Assembly: GCA_977017645.1 (NCBI GenBank)
Contig: OZ360237.1
Location: 8,742,001 to 8,806,000 of the forward strand
DNA: 64,000 bases
From: Torpedo marmorata
Lineage: Eukaryota
Direction of reading: 5' to 3'
The position numbers and the translations under genes were made by a program. Shown in pieces: positions 6,208 to 59,605 of the stretch. Positions within the stretch are counted from its first letter, which is position 1; each line of letters opens with the position of its first letter. The notes beneath the pieces were generated by a model that was given only the letters and a program-made list of their open reading frames with translations, searched no databases and had not been told where the DNA came from.

Positions 6208-6419
6208 GTAAACCACTAAAATCTGTAGTTGAAGTAAGAACACAATGCAGGAGAAACTCAGCAGGTCAAACAGTATCCTTTATATAGCAAAGGTAAAAAT
6301 ACATAACCGATGTTTCGGGCTTGAGCCCTTTATCAAGATATGGAAAAATGTTGGCAGGCGTCCGAATAAAAGAGTTGGGGGGGGGGGAAGACGTGGTCGC
6401 AAAGGCAGGAGGTAGGAAG
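6208..6419 (-). mobile_element. Penelope-like terminal-repeat insertion with hammerhead-like motif
   Basis: Reverse complement contains catatc-ttgataa-a-gggctcaagccc-gaaacatc-ggttatg, then gacctgctgagtttctcc. Flanked by ttgcaggaagac (6196-6207) and ttgcaagaagac (6420-6431). Confidence 0.8.
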
Positions 6420-6659
6420 TTGCAAGAAGACATCTGAAATGGATCTTAAAAACATCATTGGACTACTGATAGTAATCTTTAGCATATGAAGTGGCAGAAT
6501 TCCATTCATGAAGGCAATTGCCCAGATTTTTGACTTTGTCTTTTTGGGGCTTGATTTATTAAGAGTAAACTGCTGGGAAAATGAGGATGAAAGCTCCTGC
6601 AGTATGAGAGGATTGCACAAAATAAAAGAAGAAAGGAAAGACTTGCAAATAGGCAATCT

Positions 6660-7035
6660 CCCACACAACCTCACATCCTAAAATGCTCTACAGCCAATAT
6701 TTTTTTTAGAAGTGAATCAGAATTGCAGTGTCAAAGACATGGTAGCTAATTTCATGCACAACAAGCTCTCTCAAGAAATAATGTCATAATAACTCTTGTA
6801 TTTCAGAGATGCTGATTGAGGGACAGATATTGACCAGAATTTTGAGAATAACTTTCTTGCTGTTCTCCAGAACAGTTTAGTGGATTCTTTCACTAGCATG
6901 AGCAAATGACAATTAGCCATTAGAACTCTGAAAGCATAGCAATCACTTAGTACTGTACCAAGACTTTTCTTCACAAGTGTGTGGAGAAGGGACTTGAACC
7001 TTTGGGCCTGCAGCTGAGATGGCTGCTAAGTGAGC
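6660..7035 (-). mobile_element. Degenerate Deu-domain SINE (SacSINE1/AmnSINE1-like) relic
   Basis: tcctaaaatgctctacagccaat...gaagtg...tagctaatttcatgcacaacaagctc...gctgattgagggacagatattgaccag resembles the reverse complement of the Deu core as I recall it. gggacttgaacc is a tRNA B-box-like motif on the minus strand. Confidence 0.6.
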
Positions 7036-7616
7036 AATGGCTGATGCAAACTGAGAAAAAGATTTGGAAGAGGAAAAGAAAATCTTCGACAATCTACAGC
7101 AGTCAATTCAAAAATCACTTGTACTAAATGTGGCTGTGTCTCTGCTTTATGAATCAGGATATTATGCCATACAAAAGTCCATTCCAGGATTCACACTGCC
7201 TCTATAATTTGAGGAATATGTGGTTAAGACAACATTTGAACAGATAATAATGCATGGAGTTTATTCTGAAGAGCAAGGTTAGTTTACTTTAGTGCCAGCC
7301 CACTTAATGCCATTTATAGTGGATGCCCATTTTGTCATTAAGCTTTGTTTGTTTTATTACCTGCTGCACTTTTAAGACTAGGTCACAATCTTTAGGTTCT
7401 CCCCCTTCTAGTATTCAACCTGGAAAGTAGGCCAGAAGGTATGCTTCAAGGTCTTTGCTAATGTGCTAGTGCAGCTATTGGGTGAATAGATCAAGGGGAT
7501 TGGCATCTCTGATTCCTTTCTGCTTGACTTTTCATATATATGTGGGAACTTGCAGATTTGAATGGATCTATTGACCTGACAATTTATGCATTAGTATTTA
7601 CCTTTGTTGTGGGAAC

Positions 7617-7730
7617 ATAGAGCTCTATAGCAGGGAAGCAGCCCCTTCAGCTCAACTTGTCCATGCTGACCAAGCTAATCCCATTCGCCTGCTTTTAGCA
7701 CATATCTCTCTCAATCTTTCCGATCCGTCC
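7617..7730 (-). mobile_element. Short CR1-type 3' tail relic
   Basis: atagagctctatagcagggaagcagccccttcagctcaacttgtccatgctgacc is the reverse complement of a CR1/HER1-type tail (compare 41700-41740). Confidence 0.55.
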
Positions 7731-10699
7731 ATCAAACTTTTCCTTTCCTCTTTTGTTGCTATCAATTTGTTATATATTAACTACCAAAAGAAGATGCTGC
7801 AGCTCTCTTTGGAGAAGTAGTTTCATCAGAATCGCCTCCAAACTATTGTTGCTAAGCAGTAAAAGTGGCTGACTAACTTTATAGGGGTTCATTGTGAAAT
7901 AGTTCATTTTAAATTATTCTCTGAAAAATGCTGCATCATGTTGGAGAAAAGTACTGGCAGTGTTGCTAACATGCAGTTTTCTTTGGCTGCAACACTTTAT
8001 ATATTGATCCCATGCACCATGACTAATTAGCTGTCTCACAGAAGAGGATTTTCATACCAGTAAATTAATGTATTTTATTGCCAGAAAATATACATCATTT
8101 TGTCAAAAGGCACCACTGTCAGCATCTCAGTAGCTAGCTCTACAAATCATCACTGCACAATATCAATTTGTACAGTACACAGGAAGCTCCATAAAGTCAG
8201 AAGGAAAATAAAGTGAATGTTGAGCCAATAAGAGGAAGAGTCACCAAAATGTGTCGAAAATTTTATTTCTTAAGAGGGGCTTTAAAGGAAGGGTGGGAGG
8301 AGATGAGGCTCCGACAGCAAATCGCAATGTGGATTCTGGATCGTGATATGCACAGCCACCATTGGTGGAGATAAGGAAAGAGAGATGTTAAAAAGCCAGA
8401 ATTAAAAGATATTGTAGTCAAGAAAGCTACACAAATCAGAACGGTAACTCCATGAAGCAATGGGAACATAGTGGTGTCATTGTGTACCAACTTAGGGAAC
8501 ACATCAGTTTTATTCATCATTCCTTTGAATAGTCTTCAGAGGTCCAGGAGTGAGAAAATCTGGTTGATTTTTCTTTCCTGTCTCAGGAACCCAGGATCAA
8601 CTGTTATGCTTATACTATTACTCTTAACAGTTCTAACTGTTTCATTCTGCTCGGAATTCTCTGTGGAGGATTCACTTAGACATTGGATAGATGCCTTTCC
8701 CATTAATCCATTGGAAGAGCTTGCTAATCATATTTGTTTTCTGAGTATGTTTATTAGACTTGCCCTCTTTGGAAAGGAAAGATATGAAGGGCAGTATGGC
8801 ACTGTAACACCTTCAATAAGCCCATCAACTTAATGTTGCAAGTGTGTCTTTCCATTTACTTGCTGTCTAACAGCATTTGGTACACTGCTGCAAACAGTGC
8901 TTGGTCTGTCCTTGTCATTGTAGCTGGTAATTTGATCGAGTGTTACTCTAAGAACATTTTATGTCCATTTTCATTTTAAAGAAAAGAATATCTTGAAAGA
9001 TAAATCTTGATGCATTTATTTGGTTGCCTTGATAGAGAGCTGGGTCAGCTGAATTCAGCTTGTGTAAATGGGTGATGTAGCTCACATTCTCTGCTGTTTT
9101 GGTAACTGGGATCTTCAGTGAGTCTGAAAGAGTCTTAAGTGCTTATGATCACTGTAATGAAGGAAAATGGTTCCCGAGTACTCCATTAGTTTGAATTCTC
9201 ACCGTAGCTGTAAAGTGCTATTTGTAAAAGGGAAGATCCGGTATGTAAGAACTGTGTGTTGTATTTACATATTACTTGTGAGGATAAATGCAGACAGAAC
9301 TTGTCCAAATTATGAAATAAGGTTAGTTTAAAGCTCCATTAGTTTAAAAGAAAATATTAAAATCCTACATTTAGGACAATATCTATTCTCTGTTTATTAG
9401 GGGCAATTTTGTTCCAGTCATCATAGGTTATTTTTCACACTGGTAAAATAAAGATGGAAAATGTTAGAAACATTCAGCAGGTCAGACAGCATCAGTGGAA
9501 AGAGAAAGAAAGTTAATGATTTCCGTTGAAAATCCACAATCAGAACTGGTTTGATGAGAGCATATGTGGAGTATCGCTTAATGGCCACAAGAAGTCATCG
9601 GATGGTGCTGGCCACAGAATAAAAATAATGTTGCTCTGCAAGCCAGCCTGTTTCAATGCTAAACTGGTGATACAGCAGAAGTCAGGAAGTGTGCCACCAA
9701 GGTTCCAAAGACTCAGTTACAAAAATGTTATCACGTCATGGTTAAGAAGCGCAAGATAAGGCAGGTTGCAAGAGGAGAGGAAGTGAAGTCAGGAGGTGCA
9801 TTGAAACTAAGAAATAAAGGGTGTACATCATTTACCAACTGGAAGGTACCTGACCCTGTCGAGTAATTGAACTTCTGTAACTCAGGACTCTGAGGATACT
9901 CTTTATTGAGCTAGATCTGGTGTGCAGTGCTTTTTTGGGAGACCACCTCCCAGCTCGCACGTGAGGTCAGTGCCACAGAATATAGTGCAGAAGTTCCTTC
10001 GGTACAACTGACAGGCTGAATTCCCATACAGGCTTTGACAGCTGGCAGTTCACTGGCAGTTCACTGGCTGTCAAAGCTGTCACTTAAACTCAACATTTAC
10101 CACCCAGGGAATATTTTAAAAAGCACAACAAAACAATTAAAACTGAATATTTTCAAATATATCAAAGCACTAAAATAGCCGTATACATATTTCAAAACAA
10201 TCGTGTATATTTATGTTGCAATTAAATTAAATTGGAAGGTTCTCCTTGCAGGCATTTCATGATCATTTCATAGATGGCTATATGTGCACCAGATTAACCC
10301 ATGCAGGTTCAGCAGGCACATTTCTCTGCCTGACAGAGGAAGATTCTGCTTTCGTTTTGGACTCTCGGCGTGTGATGGTATCCCAGAGCCAAAGGTTTAT
10401 TGGAGCAGGAAACTGGACTTCTGCCTGCACACAACAGTTCTGAGCTTTCCTTCAGTTAAGTGCTTAAATCTATCAAATCCAAACAGACCTTGATGACTTT
10501 TAAGCTGGTGTTCTGCCTGAGTTTAGAGAAAATCTTAATGCAAGTGATGAGTGTACAAATCACGTTCAAAATGTAGGGAGGCGATATTGGAGGTTGAAGG
10601 AGCAACAGAATAAAATTCAATAACTATTGAGAAACATGAGAGGCTGCAATAGAGATGGAGATAAGTACAAAAGATGGATCATCACAACTAAAATCAATT

Positions 10700-11035
10700 T
10701 CTCCTGTCATTCTCTTTCCTTGCCCCTCTGTCTCCCTTCCTCCCACTCCCCACCCCTTCCCTTCCTTCTCCTATCAGAAAGCTATCCTTCTTAGCCCTCT
10801 ACCCTCTTCCCCATCACTTCTCAGCTTCTTTCTTTTCTACCCTCCTGCCTGCATCCACCCCCCTTCCTCCCTCCTCTTGTCTCCTCCTCCCACTCCCCCC
10901 CACCTTTTTATTCAGGTGGCTGCCTGATTTTCCACATTCTTGGTGAAGGGCTCAGGCCCGAAACATTAACTGCCTTTTACTTCCTATGGATGCTGCGTGA
11001 CCTGCTGAGTTTGTCCAGCACCTTTGTGTACTGCA
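10700..11035 (+). mobile_element. Penelope-like 3' terminal region (pyrimidine tract + decayed hammerhead-like motif)
   Basis: ttggtgaagggctcaggcccgaaacatt at about 10940, then gatgctgcgtgacctgctgagtttgtccagca. Confidence 0.75.
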
Positions 11036-11454
11036 ACGACTGGATTCCCATCTTTTTATCTCTGTTTAAATAATTCTCAGCTTTGTCTATTATTATTATT
11101 ATTGGATGTTCGTGAGCCAGTATATTTTCATTGCTGATGGTTCTGTCAAATAACACCATGCCGTGATTTGCACAGGTGTTCAAAATTCAATTCCATTCAA
11201 TTAGCACAATACAACCTCTCTTCCTCACTTAGATTGGCCATTTATGGCATCCACAGAGACATCCTGGCTGGATAGCTCTCTGCCATCTTGATGGATTGAA
11301 GCTGTGCTCTTACAGTGCTACAATATAGAGTGTTCTGCATAATTTTGGACATCCAAGTACATAGAGCATACTTAAATAAAGAAATTAAGGCCCTGGGCAA
11401 TGGCTAATAACTGGAAATCCAGAGCAGTATCCAACAAAGCACTATAAAACATTA

Positions 11455-11597
11455 CTTTGATGAAGGGCTCAAGCCCGAAACGTCGGTTATGTATTTCTAC
11501 CTTTGCTACATAAAAGACACTGTTTGACCTGCTGAGTTTCTCCAGCTTTTGTGTTTTTTACTTCTAACTACGGTGTCTACAGATTTTCGTGTTTACT
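11455..11597 (+). mobile_element. 143-bp Penelope-like terminal-repeat insertion with hammerhead-like motif and 12-bp TSD
   Basis: tataaaacatta at 11443-11454 and 11598-11609; insert starts ctttgatgaagggctcaagcccgaaacgtcggttatg. Confidence 0.85.
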
Positions 11598-13710
11598 TAT
11601 AAAACATTAAGACAACTGGTTTCAGCATTGGGGCACTGTTTTTTTAATTGCATTAATTAATATGTCTTTTGATTACTGGAGATAAAATACAATTTTAAAA
11701 TAATCTGGATACATATGTGTTTTCCAGAGAAATTTGCTGTGGATAGTGATTACAATACTGTATTACTGCAGGGGTAAAAGAAAAAACATTGGCTCAGATA
11801 GTGCCCTGAGTTACAGTAGTTCAAACATCCCCATTCCTCACCATATGCCGTTTAGTGGCTTATCAAGCCTGCAGGAATTGCCAGTCGCATTGGTTTAGAA
11901 ACTGATGACTCTGAATTCTCTGGCTGATGTTGTAGGCAGTTCAGATGCTGCCTTTAAATCCATATGTTGTTATTTTTGCAAACTGTTTGCATTTTAACTA
12001 GGCTTAATTTAAAGCATTTACATTTTGGATAAACTAAAAGAAATGTTCTGATTGTCAAGAAATGTCAGGGAAGTGGATGTGTTTGCATAATTGTTGGATC
12101 TACTGATGATCAATCAAGTAGAAAGGGGATAATAGGTTTTAATTATTGTTACTGTGTATTGTCCTGGTTGATTTTTGTTCCATAGCCATATTTACTGATG
12201 TTGATTTTGCAATCTTTCTTTTTCTATTGTAATCATTCTCATCTTTCTCTATCATTAGATTTCAGTGTGCTAGCATTTTTAATTATTGATGACAACATAT
12301 TTATCAAGCTTAACCCTGTCATTTAAAGAAATTTTGTTCTGATGAATGGAATACACTTTTTTTCCAGTAGAAACAAGGGCAGTTATGGCCCCAATTACAT
12401 GAAGAATGTGAGGATGCCCCAATATGACATATGAAAACCACAGATGGAACATGTAGTATTGGCTCCTTGCAAGTATATTGTGGTTTACTTGGCCCTCATA
12501 ATTGAAGGTTTCCCACAGGGCAAACTGTGCCAGATCTGGTCAGGGAGCTGGTATGACGAACGTCTGCCGTTTTGAAGGGTGTATGAGTCAATCAAACCAC
12601 ATTTGTAATAGCTGAAGGTTTAAATAGTGTATTTGATTAATCAGAACTAAATCTCTTTAAATGTAAAGTGAATTTAATGTATTTCTGGAATAAAAAAATG
12701 GAAGGATTTGGGTTGGATTTTACTGCTGTTTGGTCATAGGCAATACATTTAGGTTGCTGATTATATAATTGTTTTTACTGCAATCTTGGTTCTGAAAGTA
12801 TTCTTGAATATTTTTTATCCTTGCATATGAATTTCTACTTAATATTTTAATATCCAATTACGTTTAATAAATTAAGTTTATTGAAAATATTTTGTTTGAA
12901 AAGAACTCTTTTAGGACTGCAATAGTTTACATAAATGAAGCAATGATAAAATAATTATTGTACAGAATATGGTGAACAAAGTCTTTGAATGTTTACCTCA
13001 AATTGAATGCAGATTCATTCCCAACTAAAAGTTTTTGGAAAATGGAATTAGTTTTACCAGTTCGATTCAATTTACATGATTCATGTGTGGTTCTAAGTTT
13101 GACAAGTGCTGCATGAAACATAATCCCTTTTAGATGTGACCTGCCCCTTTAAGAGAAACCCTTTGAAATATACATCTTTATTAGGTCCTGGTTCTAACCC
13201 ATGAAGCTGTGGTTGAAAAATCATACACCACAGATGAATCTCTCAGCCCACAAAAAAAAAGCCTCATGGTAAAAATAGAACAGATGGTTGCCAGCTGTGG
13301 AATATTACTGCTGTAGCACTCGTGAACACGACCAATGTAACCAGCCAGCAGTGATCTGGTTCATGTACTGTGGAGTCACATACCACAGCCATGTACTTCT
13401 TGCTCGCTTTTTCAGCCTTTACTTTTCCTTTAATGAAGTATCGAAAAAAGCAGGTTTCCAAAGATTGTTTGCTCTAAATATTAAAGAAGACAACCAAGGT
13501 CCTATTTGTTCCTCATTTACAGATGTGATAAGATTACACCTAAAAATCGCATCATTTGAGTTGTTCAAAATGGCTCTTGGAGAAGCTGCTCAAAGTTGAA
13601 CTGAATCATACTAAGAAATCCCAGCTTTAATCATCAGTCTATGCTGAGCTGAGTAACTTCATACAGGTAAAAATGCACAGAAATGCTGGAGGAACTCAGC
13701 CAGTCTCACA

Positions 13711-14701
13711 GAATCAGAATCAGAATTTATTGTCATGAACAAGTCATGAAATTCGGTGTATTGCGGCAGCATCATAGTGCAATTAACATTCATATTAACC
13801 ATCTAACGACATTACTATAAAAAATTATAAACAATAGTGCACGAAAAGTAAGGTAGTGTCTTTGGTTCATTGATTATTCAGGAATCTGATGGCAGCGGGG
13901 AAGAAGCTGTCCTTGTGCCGTTGAGTGCTCGTCTTTAGGCTCCTGTCCCTTTTCCCCGATGGAAGCAGAGTGAAGAGGGCATGGCCTGGGTGGTGGGGGT
14001 CCTTGAGGATAGAGGCTGCTTTTTTAAGACACCGCCTCATGTAGATGTCCTCGATGGAGTGAAGTTTGGTGCCTGTGATGTCACAGGCCGAGTTAACAAC
14101 CTTCTGGAGTTTACTCTTGTCCTGGGAGTTGGCGCCACCATACCAGGCAGTGATGCAACCAGCCAGAATGCTCTCCACGGTACACCTGTAGAAGTTTACG
14201 AGAGTCTTTGGTGACATACCAAATCTCCGCAAACACCTCACAAAGTATAGCCGCTGACGAGCCTTCTTTGTGACTGCATCCACGTGGATGCTCCAGGACA
14301 GATCCTCGGAGATGTTTACACCCAGGAATTTGAAGTTCTTGACCCTCTCCACGACTGATCCCTTGATGAGGACTGGGTCGTGTTCCCCTGACTTCCTCCG
14401 GAAGTCCACAATCATCTCCTTGGTTTTGCTGATGTTGAGCTCAAGGTTGTTGTCATTACACAATTCAACGAGCTGATCTATCTCCCTCCTGTACGCTTCC
14501 TCATTGCCGTTTGTGATTCTGCCGACAACTGTGGTGTCATCGGCAAACTTGTATATGGCATTGGAATTGTGCCTGGCCACACAGTCATGAGTGTATAACG
14601 AGTAGAGCAGTGGACTAAGCACGCATCCTTGGGGTGCGCCTGTGTTGATAATCAGTGAGGAGGAGACGTTGTTTCCAATTCGTACTGACTGTGGTCTTCC
14701 G
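13711..14701 (-). mobile_element. Young 5'-truncated Rex1/Babar LINE inserted into a Penelope terminal repeat
   Basis: Uninterrupted 251-aa ORF 13867..14622 ([31 protein letters not shown]) and (ATTCTG)n tail. Host repeat halves lie at about 13670-13710 and 14702-14765. Confidence 0.93.
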
Positions 14702-15616
14702 TAGCATCCATAGGAGGGAAAGATATATTACTGTACCTATGTTTCGGGCCTGAGCCCTTCATACAGGGCCTGACCAGCAACAGTGCTCTAATTAGCCACC
14801 CAGCTTCTTGCGCTTGGGTAAAAAAAAAGACATAATTTGAAGATCCAGCTCATAATTATTGAGTTATGTTGGGAAGTATGTATGTGGATAGATGGTGAAG
14901 ATGGAATTAAGTTAACAGTGATATCCTCGATCAAGTACCCTGTCAGTACTTTTCGTCAGGCACCTTGTACATGAGAATGAATGAGAGGTTATTGTCATGT
15001 ACATAAGCATATAGTTGATGCACTGAAATTCTTGCATGCTGCAGCCACGGGTACATGAAATAAGTTTAAATTAAGTTACCACATGAGGGAAAAAAATATT
15101 AAATATAACGGGATAGATAAATATTCAGAGTTGCAGTTCGTGCAAAAAAAAAGTTACAATAGTGCAGAGAAATTTGAGGATATACAAAAGAGCTGATGTC
15201 CGAATGAATTAGTGCTTTCAGCAAGGGAAGAGAAGAAAGTTTCTTGCAAGTCGAAAATCATATTCTATTGGCATCTTATTGTAATGCAGGAGAGGCTAGG
15301 TAATTCTAACATTCTCTTTGATTCCAGATTTTCAGCAACTGCAGTCTTTTGTTTCTCAGATTTCTTGCATTGTTCTTGTTTCTTCTTCCTTTATCCTCAT
15401 TCATTTCCTTCTATTTACGTCTCTTGCAGACTCATCAGTTGCGATTAACAGCCCTTTCTCAACTGACGCGCCTTTACTTGTGGTCTCCACCTTTACACAG
15501 ATATTCCTTTTGTTGTTTTCAGTGCTCACCCTGCTTTGCAACTTGAAACATCTTTAATCTCCAACTTTTCCTGTTTTGGTTGAAAATTCGTTGGCTTGAA
15601 ATGTTAATTCTACTTT

Positions 15617-15620
<4 letters not shown>

Positions 15621-15655
<35 letters not shown>

Positions 15656-16039: not shown

Positions 16040-17699
16040 AATTCTACTTTTCTTCCCAAACTTGCTGCCTGACCTGCTGAGTACTTCCAGCCATTTCTGG
16101 TTTTAGTTTCAGATTTCCAGCATCTGCAGCGCACATCGAAATTTATAGTGAAAATATGCCAAGATAAATGATTCTAGAACTGTAAAGTTGGAACCTGCTA
16201 ATGAATGTGTGCCCTTACTCATAGACAATATACACCTGAGGCATGACAGTTCTGAGTTTCTAAAATGGCATCAGATGTTCTGTCACCAAATATATGCAGG
16301 ACCATGTCACCACATTGCATTAATTCACCAGCTGTAACTATTAAACCTGTATATCAAATGAAAATGTACTTGTAGCAGTGCCAAAGTGGTTTAATTGTTG
16401 TATTTATTGCCTATTGTGAAACCGAGCCACCGGGATCAGGAACGTTCCAGTTTTAATCCTGACTCTGAACTGCCTTTAGCTAATCTTGGTTGAGTTGTAT
16501 TTTTGGGGCATTATTGTTGGTCTCAGCATTGGTGAGGTGGAAACATCTCCAAGATTCAGTTGTCTTCCTCTGTTCAATAGCTTTCCCACCAGAACAGGCA
16601 AATAAAGATAGTGATGAATAAAATGTCAGAAACAATCAGTTGCACATAGTGCTGCCGGAACTTGAGTGTGCTTATTTCAGTTGTTGAGTTACGTGTGAAC
16701 ATTCACTGTTTAGCTGCACGAATTGGCCAGTAGGGCATCTGGTGAGTGACCACAGGCCTCTCTGGAACATGGCTCAGAGCCTTTACATTAAGAGAAAACA
16801 TTATGGCAGTTGGAAACAAATTGAAGAACTCACTGAAAATATATTGATTTGCCATGCTGTTACCAACTCACCTCCTTAACAACATACCGGTAGTTTGTTT
16901 TATTGCAACATACTGTATTCTTCTCTTTCAGTTTGTACTACCCTGTACTGTAATGTATTTCTGAGTGGACCTAGGGATCCAGAGTGCTGGTAAACTTGAA
17001 CCATGACAATATCAATAGGATGCAAGGATTTTCAAAACAGGGGAACATACACCGTGCTGGTGAAATGGCAAGTCAGACTAACGTGTATACATGCATCATG
17101 ATGTCATTGCATTCTAAAACCATCTGTCTTACTTATATTTTATACTCATATAAAAATACACAATTTGGTTTAAAAAAAATACCCCTATGATCATACAAAT
17201 CTCCCTTAAAATATATTAGTATCAAACTGCATTTACAACAATGTAAGTTCCCTATAAAAGTTCAGTGTCTGATTGGTATCGGTTATAAGATAAAAAACAA
17301 AGGAACCTATTAAAAATTCTAGAATCCTATTTTTACCATGTAAAATGATTTCTATTGTTTTCAACATCATTATCTTTCATTTTTTTAGCATTGTATATTC
17401 ATTGAAATCGATTTAAATTTGAAAAAAGCAGCAAACTCATTTGACAGTTTTTCAGTACATTAGTCCTCCCTTCTGATGCATTCTTCGAACTGTATTTAGG
17501 CCACAAAAACCCATAAAGCACATATTTTAAAATGAATGTACTTTATTCATTGTAAGGCATGCTTTTCCTTAATTCTTCAAATGAATTTTACTTTTGTCAT
17601 GGTAGTTCAAAAGCAACTGAACAAAAGTAGTAATATTTCATAAATGAGACTGTCACCACAAGGACAGTAAAATGGAGACACAAGAGACTGAAAATGCTT

Positions 17700-19339: not shown

Positions 19340-19840
19340 GGTTGCAACCATTTCAATTCTGAGTCACACTCCCAGACTCACATGCACTATCCTGCCCTGA
19401 CCACCCACAGATTGGAGGAACAACACCTTATCTTCCGTCTGGACACCCTCCAGCCAAATGGCTTTAACATTGATTTCTCTGCCTTCTGCTGAACTTGCTC
19501 ACCTTTTCTTTCCCCTCCCGCTTTCATGTCTTTCCAGTTCTCCTCTCCCTTCCCCACAAAGCCATCCCTCCTCCCCCTCATTGCTGCTGTCCCCTCCCTC
19601 CCCTCCATCCCCTCATCCACCTATCATCTCCTGCTTTGCCACCCCCCACCCCTCCCCCACTACCCTTTTGTTTGGATACCTGCCGGCATTCTCTCATACT
19701 TTGATGAAGGGCTCAGGCCCGAAACGATGGTTATGTATTTCTACCTTTGCTACATAAAGGACACTGTTTGACCTGCTGAGCTTCTCCAGCATTTTGTGTT
19801 TTTTATTTCAACCACGTGTCTACAGATTTTCGTGATTTAC
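19340..19840 (+). mobile_element. Second Penelope-like 3' end: GIY-YIG C-terminus directly followed by the hammerhead-bearing terminal repeat
   Basis: VATHFNSESHSQTHM and RLEEQHLIFRLDTLQPNGFNIDFS, then a pyrimidine tract, then catact-ttgatga-a-gggctcaggccc-gaaacgat-ggttatg (19695-19735) and gacctgctgagcttctccagca. Confidence 0.87.
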
Positions 19841-21680
19841 CCCTGATTGAGTTTATTGTTGACGCGTCTGATGGTGGAGGGGTAGCAGCTGGTCCTGAAC
19901 CTGGTGGTGTGAGTCTTGTGGCACCTTATACCACTGGCGTCACTAGGGGGGTGCGGACCGCACTGGGTGACACCATCAGAGGGGGTGACACCAAAATGAA
20001 TGTCTATAAAGTTTTTGTGCAGTGTTTTAGCAGAAATGTATTATTTTTTATAAAAATACCCCTGTAGTTAGTGATAACAACAAAAACATTTTTGTAAGTC
20101 CAGCTTACATGTATCAATATACCTACAAGGCTAAAACTCTATGCTAATTTACATTTTGAACCTTCGAATGCGCTCCGGTCAGAGCTGTCGTTATTACCCA
20201 ATTACAATGGTGCTTCGAATCACGTGGTTTCGTCTGCACGCGCTACAAGCACGCGCTGTTGTTTTCGTTGCTGCTGGTGTTTTTATAGTCAATGCTTTTG
20301 TCAAATTTTCTGGTGTTTTAGCTACAATATTGTGGTAATTAGCATTTGTGAACCTATATCAATAACTTTTTTGAGAATGAAGTAGTAATTAAAGGAAAAG
20401 AAGGAGAAAAATCAAAAAATGCTTCCGCTCAGTTACGTAATAATGTTGTAACTAATAATGTTGTAACTAATAATGTTGTAATTAAATGTAGAAAGGTTTT
20501 ACAAAACAAATTTGTTGTTAGTATTCATATAATCTAAGAAATATTACATTTAAGCAATTTACGAGTAACATTAGTACAAAAAACATTACTAATGATTCTG
20601 TATGGTCTGGTACGGGAGAAGGTCCATGGGGGGTGGGGGGCGGGGGGGGGAGGGTGACACCATGAGTTACCGCACTGGGTGACACCAACCCTAGTGACGT
20701 CACTGCCTTATACCCCTTTCCTGATGGTAGCAGCGAGAACAAAGCATGTGCAGGGTGGTGTGGATCCTTGATGATCGCTGCTACTCTCAGACGACAATGT
20801 TCCCTGTAGATGTTCTCGATGATGGGGAGGGTTTTACCCATGATATCATGGGCTGTGTCCACTACCTTTTGCAGGGCTTTACACTCAGGGGCATTGGTGT
20901 CCCCATACAAGCCCATGATGCAGCCAGTCAGCACACTTTCCACCACACATCTGTAGAAATTTGCCAGGCTTTCTGGTGTCATTCCAAACCTCCGCAAACT
21001 CCTGAGGAAGTAGAGGCGCTGACGTGCTTTATTCATGATGCCATCAGTGTGTTGGGTCCAGGAAAGATGCTCCAAGATAGTGACTCCCAAGAACATAAAT
21101 TTGCTCACCCTCTCCACCTCTGATCCCCCAATGATCACTGGATCGTACACCTCTGATTTTCCCTTCCTGAAGACAAAAATCAGCTCCTTAGTTTCGGTGA
21201 CATTGAGTGCAAGGTGGTTGTTGGTGCACCATTCAGCCAGGTTTTCAGTCTCCCTCCTGAATGCTTAATCATCGCCCCTTTTTATACAACCCACTACCGT
21301 GGTATCGTCAGCGAACTTGTAGATGGTGTTGCTGCTGTAACGAGCCACACAGTCATAGGTGTAAAGTGAGTAGAGCAGGGGGCTAAGAACACAGCCCTGT
21401 GGTGCTCCGGTACTGATGGAAATTGTGGAAGAGATGTTCTTACCAATCCTCACTGATTGTGGTCTGGAGGTGAGGAAATCCAGGATCCAATTACACAGTG
21501 GGGTATTGTCTTAGAGTTTACTGATCATTTTTGAGGGGATGATGGTGTTAAATGTTGCACTGTAGTCGATAAAAAGAATCCTGAAGTCAACAATCAGCTC
21601 CTTGGTTTTGGTGACATTGAGTGCGAGGTTGTTGTTGGTGCACTATTCAGCCAAGTTTTAAATCTCCCTCCTGTATGCTG
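19841..21680 (-). mobile_element. Rex1/Babar LINE (RT to 3' end), interrupted by a hAT MITE and with a rearranged 5' end
   Basis: ORFs 21265..21453 ([28 protein letters not shown]) and 20518..21150 (ARQRLYFLRSLRRFG, KDPHHP). The ORF end YPSTIR lies left of the MITE. Confidence 0.88.
19932..20705. mobile_element. Non-autonomous hAT DNA transposon (774 bp)
   Basis: Perfect 8-bp TSD ccttatac (19924-19931; 20706-20713); TIRs cactggcgtcactaggg / ccctagtgacgtcactg (15 of 17 match); subterminal gggtgacacc repeats; internal (taataatgttgtaac)x3. Confidence 0.92.
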
Positions 21681-21684
21681 GCAT

Positions 21685-21760
21685 CGAGTGCAATACACTA
21701 AAGTGCTGGAGAAACTCATCAGGTCACGCAGCATCTATAGGAAGTAAAGGGTAACCATCG
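21685..21760 (-). mobile_element. Penelope-like terminal-repeat fragment
   Basis: aagtgctggagaaactcatcaggtcacgcagcatctataggaagtaaagggtaacc is the reverse complement of the repeat at 29140-29200. Confidence 0.7.
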
Positions 21761-28959: not shown

Positions 28960-29212
28960 TTCCTGTCAGAGAGCTACCCTCTCCCCTATCACTTCTCAGC
29001 TTTTTTCTCTGATTCACTTATGACCTCTTACCTATTAGCCTATGCTTCTCTCTCCTCTCCTCCCACCCTGTCACCCCACCTTTTTATTCAGACGCCTGCC
29101 TGTTTTTGCTCATACATTGATGAAGGGCTCAGCCCTGAAATGTTGGTTACCCTCTACTTCCTATGGGTGCTGCGTGACCTGCTGAGTTTCACCAGCACAA
29201 TTGTGCATTGAA
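28960..29212 (+). mobile_element. Penelope-like 3' terminal region with decayed hammerhead-like motif
   Basis: cataca-ttgatga-a-gggctcagccct-gaaatgtt-ggttacc, then gctgcgtgacctgctgagtttcaccagca. Confidence 0.75.
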
Positions 29213-30772
29213 CAATTAAAATATCCTATTTAAACAGTGTTTGAATGTTGACTTTGTGGTGACAGTGCAATCACAATGGCAATTTAATGCTGATATTTTT
29301 TTTAAAGTTAGCGTCTTGTATCCTCTTTGTCTAAAATTAGGAGTATCTTCTTAAAAAGTCTTATTAGATGTATCAGTATAGCACAAAGGCTGCATAAGCT
29401 TTAAATTGAGATGAAAATTTTTATACATAATAATGTTTCATGACCGATTGTTGATGATGTAATGGATGATCTTGCACTGAGATAACAGAAAATTGGCAAA
29501 ACTGGAACATTTAAATCAGCATGAAGTCCTTAGTATTTTTTATTGGCCTTTTATTTGGCAGGCGCATGCACAAATGCAATTGACTTTTAATTCAATATAC
29601 ATTCTGAGGAACTCACTTTAACTAATGGTATTCACACTTGTCAATTGGATTTTCTGATTCTTCTCTTCATTAACGTGCACTGAAGTATGTTAAGACAAAT
29701 AACATACAGTAATGGGTCGTAGCCACAACTGCTTTCACGAGATTATGGGATATAGAAAGAAGGGCTAGGGTTGCAATGGAGGATATGGGGACATTTTCAA
29801 TAAGAAAGGCTGAGGAATGATTGTTTGGTGGGTTGGAAAAAAATTGGTATGCTCTTAATATCTAAACCTAGCTAGAATCTCACTTTAGATTGTAACTTAT
29901 CTTTTTCGTTCAAGTGTGGATGAAGGTGCTGCCCCATTCCTTTTTCTCAGATTGTAATTCTGATTTATTGAGTTTCCATTAAAATTGATAAAATGGATAC
30001 CCTAATAATAGTCCTCACGTTGGTTTTCAATATCCGTGCTGTATTATTTTCTTGAAAATGGGAAATAATTTTTGTTTCAAACTAATTTTTAGTGAGAATG
30101 TTTCGTGTCTCAGAGGAAGGAAATTTGATTCTCCTTCACCCTATCCATTGCAAGTTGAGAAGAAATGGTGTTACTTTTAACCTTTAAGTTGGTCTCCAGT
30201 GGAAATGTCCCTCTCGCAAGTCATGGTGCAAGTCTGCTTTTCTGCTGTATGTGAGAGCCACTAGCAGCAGCATTAATTGTATTGTAATAGGACCTTGAAC
30301 CAGTTAGTGACAGTTATTTGCTTTTTATATTTTTTTAAGAAAAAGGGCTTGTTTTTGAACTTCACCTTCAATCTAGTAATTGCTGTCTCGTCTTCCCTTG
30401 GTAAAATTTCGGTCTCCTTGTCAGTCCAAGTCTGATTATATGTTTGGGAAGTGAACCTTATCTGCACACAATAATCACTAAGATGGCTACTGTCCAGAGA
30501 GCACTGATATTGTCAATTATTTTTATATTAATAACCTGAAATATACCATTATATAATGGAGTCTAGATCAGGCATATCTAGAATTTTTTAAAAACTGAAA
30601 TATCAGTGTGAGCGAGAACAGATGTTGATGTTTTTGACTTTATCTGTTGTGATCCCATGTGCAGAGGTCAGGAAGGGCAAATGCTAGGAATTGTGCTTAA
30701 CATGACAAGATTGCCCGTGTAGCATTTCTCAGAGGTAGAGCTAAAAAAAAATCTTCTCTTCAAAATACTTTC

Positions 30773-40469: not shown

Positions 40470-40917
40470 TCCTGCTTCTATTTCTAATGTTCTTATGTAA
40501 ATCAGTTTTCTTTTAATGTCATTCAATAGCATGGAATAAAAAAAAAGAATAAATAGAGCAAAACTCTACTTTCATGTGCATGGAAGAGCTCAAAGTCTTT
40601 TAAAGTAATATCTTTAAATTTCATAAACAGGGAAGAATAAGTTCTGATGAAGGGTTTATAATCTGCTTTCCATCCTTAACTCTCATTCAGCCCAAAATAA
40701 TCACCCTCTAGGAGTTAGCTTCAGGAGTTGCATTCACCTGTAATTGAGTGAATGGAAGTTGGTTGTTTTACGAAATGACTGTGGCCAAAAATATTTTGGT
40801 AATTACATTTTAAAATGGACATTTTAATATAATTACCAGATAATCAAAAAATTAGAATAACTGACATTATCAAATGTATTAATTTTATATTTTACAATGT
40901 GGGCGTGGGCTGAAAGA

Positions 40918-51989: not shown

Positions 51990-52175
51990 AAATAGAAGAT
52001 GCTGGAAATGCTCAGCAGGTTAAGCAGCATCTGTGAAGACAGAAAGCAAAGTTAATGATTCAGGTTGATGAACTTTCATCAGATGAGAGATAATCAAACC
52101 GAAATGTTAACTCACTTCCTTCGCCACAAATGCTGTCGGCCTGTTGAGTTTTTGCACCATCATCTGTTTTTATTA
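51990..52175. mobile_element. Inverted pair of old Penelope-type terminal repeats
   Basis: Minus copy gatgctggaaatgctcagcaggttaagcagcatc...ctttcatcaga (reverse complement begins tctgatgaaag) abuts plus copy ...gaaatgttaactc...tgctgtcggcctgttgagt. Confidence 0.6.
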
Positions 52176-52317
52176 GTAATTTGGAAAAATTACCCCTCCA
52201 CCATCAGAATCCTCAATGACAAACTCAATCAGAGACTCATTTAAAGACTCTTACTTGTGCACTTTATTGATTTTCTTTTTGTTCTCTCTGTATTGCACAG
52301 TTTGTTTACATTCGTTA

Positions 52318-52531
52318 GTAAGTCTGCTGCTGTCCCCTCCCTCCCCTCACCCACCTATCATCTCCTGCCTTTGCCACCCCCCCCTCCCCCCTACCCTTTT
52401 GTTCGGATGCCTGCCGGCATTTTCCCATACCTTGATAAAGGGCTCAGGCCCGAAACGTCGGTTATGTATTTCTACCTTCGCTACATAAAGGACACTGTTT
52501 GACCTGATGAGCTTCTCCAGGATTTTGTGTT
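52318..52531 (+). mobile_element. Penelope-like terminal-repeat insertion with 17-bp TSD
   Basis: tttgtttacattcgtta at 52301-52317 and 52532-52548; insert closely matches 19585-19800. Confidence 0.85.
52426..52466 (+). ncRNA. Putative minimal type I hammerhead ribozyme (U3-A8 core variant)
   Basis: Stem I CAUACC/GGU(U)AUG; core UUGAUAA plus one extra A; stem II GGGC-UCAG-GCCC; GAAA-CG-UC with palindromic ACGU in place of stem III. Predicted cleavage after C52459; activity not shown. Confidence 0.62.
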
Positions 52532-55500
52532 TTTGTTTACATTCGTTATCTGTTTACAGTTCTTTGTTTGTTTACATGTTTTACGCTGTGTACAGTTTAT
52601 TGTTTGCACTACCGCGCCCGCAGGAAAAAGGATTCTCAGGGTTATATGTGATGTCATGTATGTACTCTGACAATAAATCTGAAATCTGAAAAAGCTATAG
52701 CTGATTAAATATTTTTAACAAAACTGCCAAGAATTTATATTAATATTTTACAAACCCATTGCATTGCACATTTTAATGGAAGAATGCAATCAATATTTTA
52801 CCATGATTGGCAAGAATTGAGAGGAGTGTGAGGAGTTTCACTGTTTTTGGTCTTGGAGTTCAGTTGGCTTCAGGACAAGGGGTCTGATTTACATTTACTA
52901 TAAAAGTAGCAACCAAGACCATCTCATTTTTTAATTGATAAATACATTGTCCCATATAGAATTAAGACCATTAGCACCAACAATCCCATATTTAGCGCCC
53001 AGTGTTTTCTAAGAAAATCTTAGCTGGGAAAATAGTATACTTTTCTAATTTTTTTCTCTCAATGCCCTGATGGAAAGGAAATCAACCAGAGATCCTGCTT
53101 CTGATGAGTTGGATGGCAGGAAAGGCCAAGGTTTGCTGATATGCGTTAGGTTCCAGAGGACATTAGCACCAACAAAAGAAAAGAGAACTAATCCCAGGAT
53201 TACTCAGTTTTGTTGCAATACTTCCATACTTTAGTATAGATCAGCAACTTGACATTTGGAATCGGCTCATTTAGAGTCTATTAGACTTACAGTTTCACTA
53301 TAAACTTATTTCAAGCCTCAGTTGTTGCTTGTAAATCTCTCCCTCTTCATTGCAGTCATGCTCTGATGAAATAAAGAAACAAAGAAAAAGAAATGCATAC
53401 AATGATTACACTGTCAGTTTATTGGAAGCTGATTGAAGAAACTGTACTAGTGTTGGTGCGGTATTGCAGCTGAGAACTAAATGTTGCAACATAATGTTTA
53501 TTACAATGAGACAAAGCTAGTCTGAAGGGAATTTGTTTCCCCTAGAAGGACACATGAAATTGCTGTCAAGTTCAGCATCAAAGTGGACTTGGATGCTTTA
53601 TTGCCTATTAAAATTTATGTTCACTGAAAAAATGTTACTTCTAAAATGATTTGACAGAGCTGCATCTGGAAGGTTAAACAAAGCCTTTATATTTTGTTCA
53701 TAAAAATATGATTTTTATTCAGCTGACAGTGCCCATTTAACTGTATTAAATTACAACTTTTGCCAAATTTAAATCATAATTTACACTTTCTTTATTTGAA
53801 CAATAATTATTGTTTTCTTTTTCAAATTATGACAAATTTTCTCCTTCAGTTTTGGATTATTTATCTCTTTCCCAAATACTTTTTGCTTCTTTTAAACATC
53901 CTTTTCATATTATTTTTCTTTTCTCTCTCATTTTCAGTTTCTTCATTCTCTTCTATTTCCCTAAACATTTTTACCTTCTTCATGTTTAAGTGTCTCTTAA
54001 TTATTCGCTCTATCTCACACCCCTTTTTCTCTAATGCTCAGTATTTTATCCTTGTGCTTTCTACCTGTGTTTGTTTTTAATTCAATTCATTTATTTTATT
54101 TTATTTACCTCATTCTCCTCATCTTTCACTAGTTCTTTCACTAAAAGTCTTTTCCTATAACTTTGTCAAATTCTGTCAAATCCTCTTTTTGAGGGTTTCT
54201 CTCAGTTCTCTCAGTTTCAATTGTTCTGTGCATGAAATTCTCATTTCAATTCGTCATTTTTTGTACTCTTCTCCAATTATTTTTACATTTTTCATCTTCT
54301 GTATACTTCCTTTCACCATTATGCCCTTTTCCCCTTGTTTCTTCCTCTGCGGTGTCAAAAAAAGGTCAGTTGCAACCTTTCTAACACAGAATGACCTTTC
54401 TTGAGAAGAATGCAGGAGAGACATTTTTTCATCACAACCTATTTTTAAATGATGATTGTGTGAATTATAAGGAAGAATATTGTTAAATGGAAGCAGAACA
54501 AAAGTTCAGAATTCATTAATCCTGTATAGTATCCTCAGAACGTCATCATCATTTTGGAATGTACAAAATATGTACCACTGTTTAAGGTACCAAATATGTA
54601 TTGCAGCTAGCTTGGTGGTAATGTCTTTCAGCCAGCTGAAATACTGTTTGGAAATATGATCATGAATAATTATACTTGCAAGATTGCTTAATTAACAGTA
54701 TTCTAATAATAAACTGAAGATTGCTGACCTTGTCTCTGGATAGAATGGAAATGCTGCTATATTATCTTACTGACCTATGCAGGTCTTTACTAAGACAGAT
54801 TAAGGAACCTAAAGTCTTCCCTTACTCTCTTGTTTCTCTTAAAAAAGAAACATATCAGTTGTTTGCAGAATATCAAGCAGCTGCCCGACAGTTTTGTATG
54901 TCGCGTGCCTGTAGTTCATAATAATGCATGGGTCTTCAATATAATGCAGAATGTCTCAGTTTATTACATGTTATTATTGAAACCATGTCTTGTGGACAAT
55001 AACAACAGGAACTGTAGGAACTTTTTCAGCAGAATTGAGTGCCCTACTTAGTAAATGAGAAAGGGGGTGAGAAAACATTTTTTCCCTAAACTACAGCTTT
55101 GCATATGTATGTTTGGCATTTTTCCCTTCATTAAATTGAGTTACTGTTTTTAGGAATGCATTATCTCATGTTATGTTTTTTAGGAAAGGTCAAGTCTCAT
55201 TAGTTCCCATTTCAATATAGTTTAATGCAGCAAAATGAGAGTACTTTTCAATTAGGATTTGCTTGCATTCCCTAAAGTGCCTCATCCCTGTTTAGTTTCC
55301 TAAGTGGTCAGTAAGAAAACATAAGGGTTGGCTGAGATGCCATTACTGCTGCAGGATATGTACTCAAGGGCAGATGGTGATTAATGTTTTATGCAACAGC
55401 AATTGGGATGAAATACTAAAAGAATATTTTGTAAATTTAATTAATATGAAAATATATTTGAGGCATATTTACAAGCAGCAAGAACAAAACATTTTATTGG

Positions 55501-57699
55501 TGGAGAAAGGGAAATAGTTGTAAAGCAAAAAAAAAGCTTCGATCTCTGTAATGTTAATGTTTCAGCCCATGTTGTTCAAAAGCAATGTTCTGTTGAAAAT
55601 AAAGACAGATTTATTTGGTTCTCATGATCATAGACTTGATGCTTTTAAATATTAGAAACAGGGGGGCTTATTTGGACATTTTTACTTCAGCCCCTCCTGG
55701 GGTCTTCAGTCTTGTAAGTATTATTGTCTCATAAAATTTCTGATTTGCATGCAAATGATTTTCATTTGTAAACAAAACTCAATTGACTGAATGGTAGCCA
55801 TTCTCACAGATTGAAGCAGTTAGTTAACATCCTTTTATTTACTCTATCTACAGTTACCAGTGTGTTACTTTATGTGCTTGTATCTATTCCCCAGATAAAG
55901 ATTTTTCCAAGGTTTTAACTTCAGAAGTTTCACTCTTTACAATATTTAAGTCAATAAATAGCCTCTGGCCAAGTTATAATAAAATCTTGTTAGTGAGTAA
56001 ATATTGATATTCTTCAGGGATAAAGCCAAATGTTCAGATTCAATATGTAACTTAAAGCAACAAATCTTTTGATCTGGCTCTGTTCATTAACTTTGATTTA
56101 AATAGTCCACTTAATTTGATGAGAATTAAAATGATTTAATTTTATTTTCATATTTTTCTGCTTCCATACATGAAGCTTCAAGAGGATAAACCTGGATCTC
56201 CAAAGTAACTGAAACATATGGGCATCTTTGTAAAAGTAATTGAAACATATAACCCAGAAATGTTAAGAGATTACACAAGAAATCAAAAACACCAACTCGT
56301 GGACAGCCATTTCCAATAAACAGCTTACATTTTCTATGACTGGACATCAGCCATGGTTAAGAATTCACCCAGTTTCCTTTTGACCACCTGTAGTGATTTG
56401 GACTCTCTGCAGGACCTTATAATGTGTTTCCAAAGCTCTGCAAAAATAAAACCTTACTGACATCTAAGCTAGTTCTTTGCTCGTGTAATTATGTTCCCTG
56501 GTTATCCCTATTATCAAATTTAAATAATCTTTCCATGTGCACATGGTTTGGTTCCTTCATTATTTTAAGGACCTCAATGAATGCTCCGTGAAATCTATGC
56601 TACCAGTTGCACAAATATTTGTATCAACTACATGCATAAGTACTTATTCACATTGGTCATTTTCCTCCATCATTAATATATATTGTGAAAGCAATGATAA
56701 CAAGCACAATTCAGATCCCACTAATAAATGGATTCTGTGTAAAATCATCAGTATTTATAACAACCAGCTTTAAGAATGTCTCCAGTTCCATAACTGCTCA
56801 AAATCTGCCCCAGCAATTGATCCTATCATTCAAAGTCTGGCAAAAGCAGCACAATTTTTATATTCAAATTCAAATTTGTATTTTCCACTGGAAGGTAGCA
56901 TCTTAGTGAATCTGAGGTGTGGAGGCTCAACATCCTTTTTCATACTGTGGTGCTCAAACTTACATATTATTTCAACCGTGCTCTTGATTCACCAGAACAC
57001 CCTGCCATTCATATTATATAGTATGACATTTTTTTTGTGTGGGTTAAACTGTTTATAGAACTTTGTGTAAGATTCATTAAGGTAAAAAGATAACACAACC
57101 CATTCCAAATGCATATCTACCACAATTCAGTTAAAATTTATGCTTGTTTACTTTAAAAAAAAAAATGTTTGTGCGCCCATTTGGAATGAAACAATAGAAT
57201 TATCTTGGCCGAAAGAGGGTTTCAGATGCAGTGTTTCCATTTGTTTTCGAAGTATCTCAGTCAGAATGTGTCATGGTTAAGGAGGTAGAGGAGCAGAAAA
57301 GGTTTGTAGTATTCAGATTTTAGTGCACACAGGATAACCATCTGAGCATATTGCAAGTCAGCAAGAGAAAGATTTGCTCTCTGCAGGAAGTTTATATTGA
57401 GCAAATTTGGCATAAAGCACAATCAGACTGCTTAAAATCATTATATTCACCAACTATTATGCAGTGTGGCATTTAAATATCATGTACTGCAACAAGGTGA
57501 AAGGCACATTGGTCAACTGTACTTTCATCTCCTTTCCCAGTGAATGTTCCACAACCCATGACCAAATATATTTAATCAGTGCATTCTCAAAATTCAATAA
57601 TGAAGCCCTTGAAATATTTGGGTGCATCTAGGCTCTCATTTATGCCCCTAATATGTCTTAACATATCAACAAGCATAGTTTTCAGTGAAAGAGATCAAA

Positions 57700-57797
57700 G
57701 CAAAACACAATCTGCTGGAGGAACTCAGCAGTGTCGAGCGGCATCAGTAGGCAATAAAGAATGGTCAATATTTTGGGCCTGGATTCTTCATCAAGGC
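57700..57797 (-). mobile_element. Penelope-like terminal-repeat fragment
   Basis: tgctggaggaactcagcagtgtcgagcggcatc...tttgggcctggattcttcatcaagg. Confidence 0.68.
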
Positions 57798-59329
57798 TCT
57801 CGGGTGTCCCAAAGTGATCAAAGGTTGTGCAAAGATGAGCTTAAATCTAATACATGATAGCGCTGTTTCGTCTTAACTTGTCACCTTTCTTTTTCAGATA
57901 GACACTGTTTATTCAGGCAGCAACAACTTTCCAGATTCAGCATAGTCTTTTCCTTCATGGAAGCTGGCCTCATATTACAAGCAGGGGAAAAACACCTTGC
58001 TGTATTTTTTTACAGCAGAATCTCCATTTTGCCAGCCATTATCTTCTTAGCCACATCTAATCTTCTATGCTCCATTGTTGCATTAGCTAATGTTTTCATC
58101 CAGAGAGACATTTCCGTGTTTATTGCTAATTTTTCCCCAGTGAATTATTAATCTCGGGATACTAATATAAGTCAATGTTAGATTCTACTTTGCAATTTTT
58201 CTTGTCAGGCATTTTATCATCGAACTATAATAAAGTTGTGCACTAATAAACACACACCTAATTCAATGCACGAGGCACGTTGTCCAGTCCCACAGCATAG
58301 AATTTTTGATCCAAATGTAATACTAAATAATTCTCGTATATCCTCCTGCTTTGCAGTTTTAAATGTCAGTCTCTCTAAGTTTAGTTAGCCAGTTGTAAAC
58401 TTCATCAGAAGCCCTAAACACAGTTTACAAGTCTGATTATTTTTCCATTTTGTGGATCAAAACTACTTTTGTGTTTTTCCCAAATTGATTGTTTTGGGAT
58501 TTGGTTGAAAGATATACAAACTGAACACACAATTCAGAATCCAGCAAAATCATATAATTTCTTAAGCATTTCCATGAGGTACTCATAAAAATCTAACTGT
58601 CTTCAGATGACAATATCAGTTTTTGACCCATGGGCACTGGGCCTGCATAGTGGAACTTCTTGTGTAAGGATTCACTTTAGTATAATATTAGGATGTGGTC
58701 AGTCTAAGAACAGGATTTATTTAGACTGCAATTTGCCTGAATAAAGCGGTTAAATTGACTGTACATTTATTCATATCGGAAGTATCTAACGCTATGGAAA
58801 ATAAAAGGTCCCATATTTATTTCTCGTCTGCTGCTTGAATAAGCCATTGTTTCATGTTGGAAAATTTCAACATTAGCTTGTTCCTGTTGCATGGGAATAC
58901 AATAATACATGGAATCTTATGACTCTGAAGGTTGGGTTGGCAGCTTGCCATGTTCTGATGGGTGAGGCTTTTGAATGGCACATTATGGTTAACAGCCACA
59001 TGATAATATTTTTTTAAAATTTCCAAATAAAACCCAATTCCTTTCCATATTTCTGTACCTCTAAAAGCAAAAGTTATTCATCAGGTTAGTGAGAAAGACA
59101 TAACCATGGAAGAAACGGATCATCTAGCTCTGTCTGACTGCCGGGAGGCTTTTTCACTTCCTGTGATTTACTTTTTATTTTTGTTTTCTGCTCATTTCTC
59201 CCTTCTTTCCTGAAGGCAATGACTCATGTTGAGGTACATTTCCAAAGGGGCTGGAAAATTTTGAGTGTCTCAGTCAAGTGGCTATTCTTCATGTATCATC
59301 CTAGATATCAAGCACTGACAGGAGTTAAA

Positions 59330-59605
59330 CAAGAAAGTCTGTAGATGCTGTGATTGTAGTTTAATACACAAAAGTGCTAGAGAAACTCAGCAGGTCACGC
59401 AGTGTTCTTTAGGGCAAAGATGCATAACCAACCCATATCCACGTATGACCTCTTGCCTGTGGGCCTGTGATTCTCCACCCTCCACCCTTTCCTTCTCTTT
59501 TGCTCATACCTTGACGAATGGTTCAGGCCCAAAACATTGGTTCTGTTTCTTTGCCATAAAAAATGCTGCATGACCTGCTGAGTTTCTCCAGTGCTTTGGT
59601 GTATA
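59330..59605. mobile_element. Inverted pair of Penelope-like terminal repeats
   Basis: Minus arm atacacaaaagtgctagagaaactcagcaggtcacgcag (about 59364-59402) and plus arm ctgcatgacctgctgagtttctccagtgctttggtgtat (about 59566-59604); decayed motif catacc-ttgacga-atggttcaggcccaaaacatt. Confidence 0.8.

What the first reader, a model, noticed from the sequence alone, without database searches (positions are those of the whole stretch)
6208..59605. Dispersed Penelope terminal repeat carrying a minimal hammerhead-ribozyme-like motif throughout the SOX6 intron
Seen: about a dozen loci of one repeat (6208-, 10700+, 11455+, 13670/14702-, 15530/16055+, 19340+, 21685-, 28960+, 51990 pair, 52318+, 57700-, 59330 pair). 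The best copies read CAUACY-UUGAURA-A-GGGC-UCAR-GCCC-GAAACGUC-GGUUAUG. At 19340-19840 the repeat directly follows a GIY-YIG C-terminus on the same strand, tying it to Penelope-like elements. Established: PLE terminal repeats carry minimal type I hammerheads whose stem III is reduced to a palindrome (ACGU) and which cleave mainly as dimers. Inference: what looks like an anonymous SINE is a ribozyme-bearing PLE end. Sense copies lie in the SOX6 pre-mRNA and could in principle dimerise in cis (e.g. 11455 with 52426).
Basis: partly seen in the sequence, partly recalled or inferred. Interest (0 to 1): 0.7.

Follow-up and report, generated by a model that had tools for sequence, protein, structure and literature searches.

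The report
Penelope retrotransposon stubs carrying minimal hammerheads
The repeats in this SOX6 intron of a cartilaginous fish are cut-off ends of a Penelope-like jumping gene that carry an already described kind of tiny hammerhead RNA motif; the motif was kept across the element's subfamilies, but the intronic copies are likely inert debris that does not cut the SOX6 transcript.

Summary
Real but ordinary. The window holds 16 copies (8 per strand) of the terminal repeat of an endonuclease-bearing Penelope-like element, inside a 127-kb SOX6 intron. A full-length relative has pLTR-ORF(RT, zinc linker, GIY-YIG)-pLTR with the motif in both repeats. The motif fits the published minimal type I hammerhead. 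Across subfamilies the core is conserved (0.92 vs 0.44-0.68 in flanks), N7 and H17 vary, and stems I/II covary. The dominant family (60,725 exact 28-mers) has a U3·G8 wobble, a form already in the 2014 supplement. Single copies decay neutrally (core 1.3-1.4% per site, flanks 1.3%). Only 2 of 10 core-spanning window copies keep a full core. Sense copies are not depleted in SOX6/SOX5 (88 sense, 65 antisense), so cis-dimer cleavage of SOX6 pre-mRNA is unsupported. Copy 5' ends are not enriched at the cleavage site (42 vs 29-47 at controls) but pile up at the start of stem I (288). Cleavage is untested. The scan reported this family, the U3 core and the 5'-end pile-up before, in this genome and others.

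The parts
2276..2486 (+). SOX6 coding exon; the rest of the window is the following 127-kb intron
11453..11597 (+). 145-nt PLE stub: begins at the stem I 5' strand, complete U3·G8 core (U3 11457, C17 11484), conserved box, tail; 12-bp target duplication at 11443-11454 and 11598-11609
19345..19840 (+). 3' end of the PLE: last 48 codons of the ORF (19346-19492), 3' pLTR, hammerhead motif broken at U16.1 (U3 19701), tail
52325..52534 (+). 5'-truncated pLTR, motif with sporadic G8>A (U3-A8; U3 52432, C17 52459), no tail; 17-bp target duplication
6208..6411 (-). 5'-truncated pLTR, motif with G8>A and broken stem III palindrome
10837..11037 (+). older-subfamily pLTR, motif broken (A6>G)
29050..29214 (+). 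older-subfamily pLTR, decayed motif
59319..59607 (.). inverted pair: 59319-59432(-) tail fragment and 59499-59607(+) decayed motif
51992..52171 (.). old inverted pair, heavily decayed
57695..57798 (-). old-subfamily copy, motif broken (G12>A)
14701..14768 (-). fragment with decayed motif
13671..13715 (-). downstream-box fragment without motif
21677..21757 (-). fragment that starts downstream of the core
16047..16113 (+). old downstream-box fragment without motif

Best explanation
These repeats are 5'-truncated and inverted insertion products of an RT/GIY-YIG Penelope-like retrotransposon whose terminal repeat carries a minimal type I hammerhead motif, likely kept by selection only in the active parent elements and likely inert in the SOX6 intron. 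Shown: element anatomy, copy number, subfamily-level conservation and covariation, neutral decay of copies, target-site duplications, two 3' ends 35 nt apart, no strand bias in two genes. Inferred from published PLE work: the element protein nicks AT-rich DNA and starts cDNA at one of two internal sites downstream of the motif (giving copies with or without the tail); early stops leave 100-500 nt stubs that look like a SINE. Inferred, untested: the motif is a slow ribozyme (U3·G8 wobble, no stable stem III) that folds only as a dimer in tandem element RNA or with the element's protein; cleaved RNA is not the usual template, since copies do not begin at the cut site.
For: 29 of 29 other loci fetched with 19340-19845 share its 3' end and continue upstream into the element by 13 to >=1500 nt. 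L032 has 5' pLTR+motif+tail, ORF, 3' pLTR+motif+tail and an upstream inverted copy. Homologues of the ORF carry RT and GIY-YIG Pfam domains. 62 sequence clusters from 174 unselected copies: core majority fraction 0.92, flanks 0.44 and 0.68, N7 U/C/A/G 33/15/11/2, H17 U/C/G 32/22/4. On 81 distinct rows, 58 cells change on both sides (shuffles 30.7, 0/500; slid controls 9-32); 10.4-11.4 CG 53/UA 14, 2.2-1.2 CG 26/UA 21, 2.3-1.3 AU 21/GC 15. G5 and G8 mutants 867 and 784 against 60,725 intact, equal to flank decay 49/3759. 180 of 186 young copies end at +100-109 or +135-139. Starts at the cut site 42, control +6 nt 29, p=0.34. Strand counts 88:65 all, 8:7 strict.
Against: No cleavage data. Rfam finds no hammerhead. 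Position 3 is U with G8 in most of the genome (C3 general pattern only 4,572), and the 11457 copy's lowest-energy fold buries the core in a hairpin. Covariation rests largely on an old/young lineage split; the pair-count measures did not beat shuffles (108/500 and 163/500), stem I is only 61.7% paired and pair 2.1-1.1 shows no covariation. A downstream box is almost as conserved as the core (0.87), so conservation alone is not specific to catalysis. A first within-family comparison gave core 1.0% vs flank 3.1%; it mixed subfamily differences into flanks and vanished with matched conditioning. No tree was built, so Neptune is assigned from the zinc linker only.
Confidence: 0.85

Rival explanations
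1. The U3·G8 motif no longer cuts; it is kept as a folded 5' leader or protein-binding/promoter element of the PLE RNA.
For: U3·G8 family reached >60,000 exact copies with no U3-A8 rescue subfamily; no copies pile up at the cut site; 5' ends pile up at the start of stem I; hammerhead mutants did not affect PLE insertion in vitro.
Against: The variation pattern is the catalytic one (N7 free, H17 avoids G, position 3 only U or C); U3·G8 also occurs in a PLE-linked motif of Saccoglossus.
Confidence: 0.3
2. Sense copies in the SOX6 intron pair in cis (11457 with 52432) and cut the pre-mRNA, affecting SOX6 expression.
For: Both copies are sense and have a complete core (11457 U3·G8; 52432 U3-A8, a pair described as active); all pairs of a double hammerhead can be drawn.
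Against: 40,975 nt apart, rough effective concentration 3e-8 M, and the dimer is predicted 8.7 kcal/mol above the two monomers (crude, the same model also disfavours a 3-kb tandem). No sense depletion (control LINE 22:20). Neutral decay. Published min-HHRs are barely active even as close dimers and the anole motif needs PLE protein.
Confidence: 0.03
3. The short copies are an independent SINE or retrozyme family with its own transcription, merely related to the PLE.
For: Many copies are only 105-145 nt with target duplications and a preferred 5' start.
Against: 5' ends run continuously from inside the motif into the RT ORF (32 of 60 unselected copies extend beyond -60); same 3' ends and inverted partners as long copies; no tandem arrays of the unit in the window.
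Confidence: 0.07

Closest known systems
Minimal hammerheads (min-HHR) in pLTRs of metazoan Penelope-like elements (Cervera and De la Pena 2014, PMC4209133; read parts 1-2 of 4 of the text and parts 1-2 of 3 of supplement file 2)
   Same: Type I layout, extra nucleotide 9.1, G10.1-C11.1, palindromic ACGU instead of stem III, one motif per pLTR, mostly solitary truncated copies, inverted pairs; U3-A8 and U3·G8 variants both appear in its Fig. S3.
   Different: No cartilaginous fish in the Fig. S3 and Table S1 lists I read; here U3·G8 is the dominant form and copy number (>60,000 exact) exceeds the 4,000-9,000 reported for coelacanth and Xenopus.
Anole Poseidon element PAc (Frangieh et al. 2024, PMC11167929; read parts 1-2 of 4)
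   Same: Two internal RT start sites that give an optional tail just downstream of the hammerhead; cleavage not needed for insertion; no RNA ends at the cut site.
   Different: PAc has C3-G8 and belongs to Penelope/Poseidon; this element has a zinc-finger-like linker and a wobble core.
Neptune/Nematis EN+ PLEs (Craig et al. 2021, PMC8557442; passages)
   Same: RT, CX2-5CxxC linker, C-terminal GIY-YIG, partial tandem pLTRs, upstream inverted copy, 30-40 nt tail.
   Different: Clade not tested by phylogeny; all ORFs seen are broken.
Non-LTR retrozymes (bioRxiv 10.64898/2026.07.22.740005; part 1 of 5 and passages)
   Same: Type I hammerheads related to PLE pLTRs; one chondrichthyan genome was sampled.
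   Different: Retrozymes are tandem arrays; the window copies are dispersed monomers and inverted pairs.

Membership tests
EN+ Penelope-like element | single ORF with RT followed by C-terminal GIY-YIG endonuclease | tested here: met
   Pfam RVT_1 E 1e-4 and GIY-YIG E 0.017, both below cut-off on broken copies; intact homologues with both domains
EN+ Penelope-like element | pLTRs from partial tandem, upstream inverted copy, optional 30-40 nt tail | tested here: met
Neptune clade | CX2-5CxxC linker between RT and EN | tested here: met
   shared with Nematis
Neptune clade | placement in an RT phylogeny | not tested
   no named reference PLE proteins at hand
minimal type I hammerhead (min-HHR) | core U4 G5 A6 N7 G8 A9, G12 A13 A14 A15.1, U16.1 H17 | tested here: met
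   at subfamily level; 2 of 10 window copies
minimal type I hammerhead (min-HHR) | Watson-Crick pair 3-8 | tested here: not met
   dominant family U3·G8; older subfamilies C3-G8; same wobble listed for Saccoglossus
minimal type I hammerhead (min-HHR) | stem II with G10.1-C11.1, unpaired 9.1, covariation | tested here: met
   91.6% paired, CG/UA swap at 10.4-11.4
minimal type I hammerhead (min-HHR) | short stem I with covariation | tested here: met
   swaps at 2.2-1.2 and 2.3-1.3, but only 61.7% paired in decayed copies and lineage-confounded
minimal type I hammerhead (min-HHR) | palindromic 15.1-16.1 segment allowing a dimer | tested here: met
   ACGU in all large subfamily majorities; CpG decay in single copies
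minimal type I hammerhead (min-HHR) | self-cleavage after H17 as dimer or with protein | not testable with these tools
   needs an assay; only assembled contigs were offered
Rfam hammerhead families | match at gathering score | tested here: not met
   none at E<=10
non-LTR retrozyme | tandem array of hammerhead-bearing units | tested here: not met
   window copies are dispersed

The most novel reading that the evidence does not exclude
The hammerhead sits at the very 5' end of the element's RNA: the 7-9-fold pile-up of copy starts at the first bases of stem I marks the transcription start, the 105-145-nt 'SINE-like' copies are cDNAs of that leader primed at the two internal RT sites, and a wobble-core motif that may no longer cut was kept as a structural leader while the family spread to more than 60,000 copies.
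Probability: 0.25. Interest if true: 0.55.

Novelty: new member of a known kind. Interest (0 to 1): 0.25.

Why it matters
It reclassifies an abundant anonymous repeat of a ray-like genome as PLE ends, and offers a natural test of an open question, whether PLEs need hammerhead cleavage: the most successful family has a wobble core and its copies do not start at the cut site. It gives no reason to expect an effect on SOX6.

Tried and rejected
Rfam scan: no hammerhead family. U3-A8 subfamily suggested by two window copies: rejected, G8 mutants are no commoner than G5 mutants. Copies templated by cleaved RNA: rejected. TAC microhomology as the sole cause of the -4 pile-up: not enough, another TAC start gives 38. 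Purging of sense copies: not seen in 804 kb; only two genes, so weak depletion is not excluded. Sequencing runs: no RNA holder listed; four contig sets from three coded organisms cover the repeat but cannot show ends, strand or level. Dimer energetics ignore tertiary contacts and do not separate near from far pairs except through distance. Lunse et al. (PMC5785218), Przybilski and Hammann (PMC1986816) and Nelson and Uhlenbeck (PMC2271363) were not held, so I have no measured rate for U3·G8; paper searches on it gave none. Searches for chondrichthyan PLE hammerheads found no dedicated paper, which is not proof of absence; Lunse et al., supplement file 1 of PMC4209133 and the preprint's supplements could hold such entries.
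Full report
Setting. The window is G000:C50:8742001-8806000 of a 6.2-Gb genome. Bases 2276-2486 are a SOX6 exon, 99% identical over 70 aa to ray SOX6 and 91-97% to shark SOX6. The next exon lies at C50:8871830 on the same strand, so the rest of the window is one 127-kb intron.

Observation. A profile built from 90 motif-anchored copies elsewhere in the genome finds 16 copies in the window at E<=0.01, 8 per strand, and none in 5 shuffles. Ten copies span the core. 11457 has the complete family motif with a shortened stem I; 52432 is complete but has A at position 8; the other eight are broken at one or more core or stem positions. Rfam reports no hammerhead.

Parent element. A DNA search with 19340-19845 gave 8,722 first-look candidates, 40 scored; the 29 other loci fetched share the same 3' end and extend upstream for 13 to at least 1500 nt. 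Translations show RT motifs, a CxxxxCxxC linker and a GIY-YIG domain; intact homologues at up to 44% identity over nearly the whole query carry RT and GIY-YIG Pfam domains. L032 is full length: upstream inverted copy, 5' pLTR with motif and tail, broken ORF, 3' pLTR with motif and tail. This matches the EN+ PLE layout with the Neptune/Nematis linker (PMC8557442, passages). 180 of 186 young copies end at one of two points about 35 nt apart, as expected from two internal RT start sites (PMC11167929). 11453 and 52325 have 12- and 17-bp target duplications.

The motif. It reads as a minimal type I hammerhead as defined in PMC4209133: stem I, U3 U4 G5 A6 N7 G8 A9, extra A9.1, 4-bp stem II, GAAA, palindromic ACGU, H17. 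The exact 28-mer occurs 60,725 times, reversed control 0; 100 of 100 listed have U3. A broad C3 pattern gives 4,572 and U3 with N7 other than U gives 25,213. From 303 core-covering copies I kept 174 not picked by a motif search; their 62 clusters (many single copies) give majority fractions of 0.92 in the core, 0.44 and 0.68 in flanks, free N7, H17 mostly U or C, position 3 U 37 or C 23. On an alignment of 83 of 90 representative rows (7 gappy or cut rows dropped), two-sided changes occur in 58 cells against 30.7 in shuffles and 9-32 in slid controls; pair 10.4-11.4 ranks 2 and 2.3-1.3 ranks 8 of 861 column pairs by corrected mutual information, but 2.2-1.2 ranks 457 and 2.1-1.1 699. Relatedness inflates these figures and pair-count measures did not beat shuffles. 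The U3·G8 form is in print for a PLE-linked Saccoglossus motif (Fig. S3 of PMC4209133). I found no measured rate for it.

Single copies are neutral. Among otherwise exact copies, G8 is changed in 784 and G5 in 867, 1.3-1.4%, the same as flank sites (49 of 3,759 in 69 copies, subfamily sites excluded). The A8 in 52432 and 6336 is therefore chance decay. CpG sites in the motif are at 13%.

SOX6 hypothesis. In 484 kb of SOX6 and 320 kb of SOX5, copies are 88 sense to 65 antisense (p=0.075), strict intact motifs 8 to 7 (G8 required, so 52432 is not counted); a control LINE is 22 to 20. There is no sign of purging. The proposed pair is 40,975 nt apart; a rough model gives about 3e-8 M effective concentration and a dimer 8.7 kcal/mol above the monomers (crude). 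Published min-HHRs cut poorly even as close dimers and the anole motif cut only with PLE protein.

Where copies begin. Counting genome-wide copies whose six upstream bases all differ from the family: 42 at the cut site, 29 at +34, 38 at +41 (also a TAC start), 47 at -14, and 288 at -4, the start of stem I; corrected for chance, about 190-280 against 1,870 (full-copy totals for each string were not measured). Of 20 such loci 10 have a target duplication of at least 7 bp and 5 an inverted partner, so they are insertion-time ends. 9 of 60 unselected copies start in -10 to -1. The site resembles an initiator motif (YYANWYY, recalled), and Penelope of D. virilis has an internal pLTR promoter (PMC2377424, passages). 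Against a simple start-site model: of 6 distinct copies that run on into the ORF only one starts at -4, and it was selected for that. An RT stop or junction preference is as likely.

Verdict. Observation confirmed; identification as a ribozyme-bearing PLE end correct and of a published kind; effect on SOX6 unsupported.

Noticed in passing
window 11520-11550 and equivalents in all subfamilies: A box 35-65 nt downstream of the cut site is almost as conserved across subfamilies as the hammerhead core (0.87 vs 0.92) and can form a small hairpin; it lies just upstream of the two 3' ends and may be the RT-binding signal.
   Followed up: partly
window 17676-18699 (+): Decayed RT-to-GIY-YIG remnant of an older PLE family; no hammerhead copy found after it.
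   Followed up: partly
L124/L125 (C1:5814641-5814711) and L239: Short head-to-tail duplications of the motif 46 nt or less apart; such loci are better dimer candidates than the SOX6 pair.
   Followed up: no
window 61253-62140 and 38683-38859: Tandem arrays with 42-bp and 27-bp periods.
   Followed up: no
window 2090-2168: Long hairpin about 110 nt upstream of the SOX6 exon; scores below gathering against several miRNA models.
   Followed up: no
window 225-1173, 5554-5994, 13867-14727, 20518-21510, 27069-28652, 33567-35951, 39090-40565, 40883-41677: Fragments of other RT-encoding LINEs on both strands.
   Followed up: no
window 33141-33521: AT-poor stretch with overlapping open frames just upstream of the LINE at 33567; probably its 5' region.
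   Followed up: no
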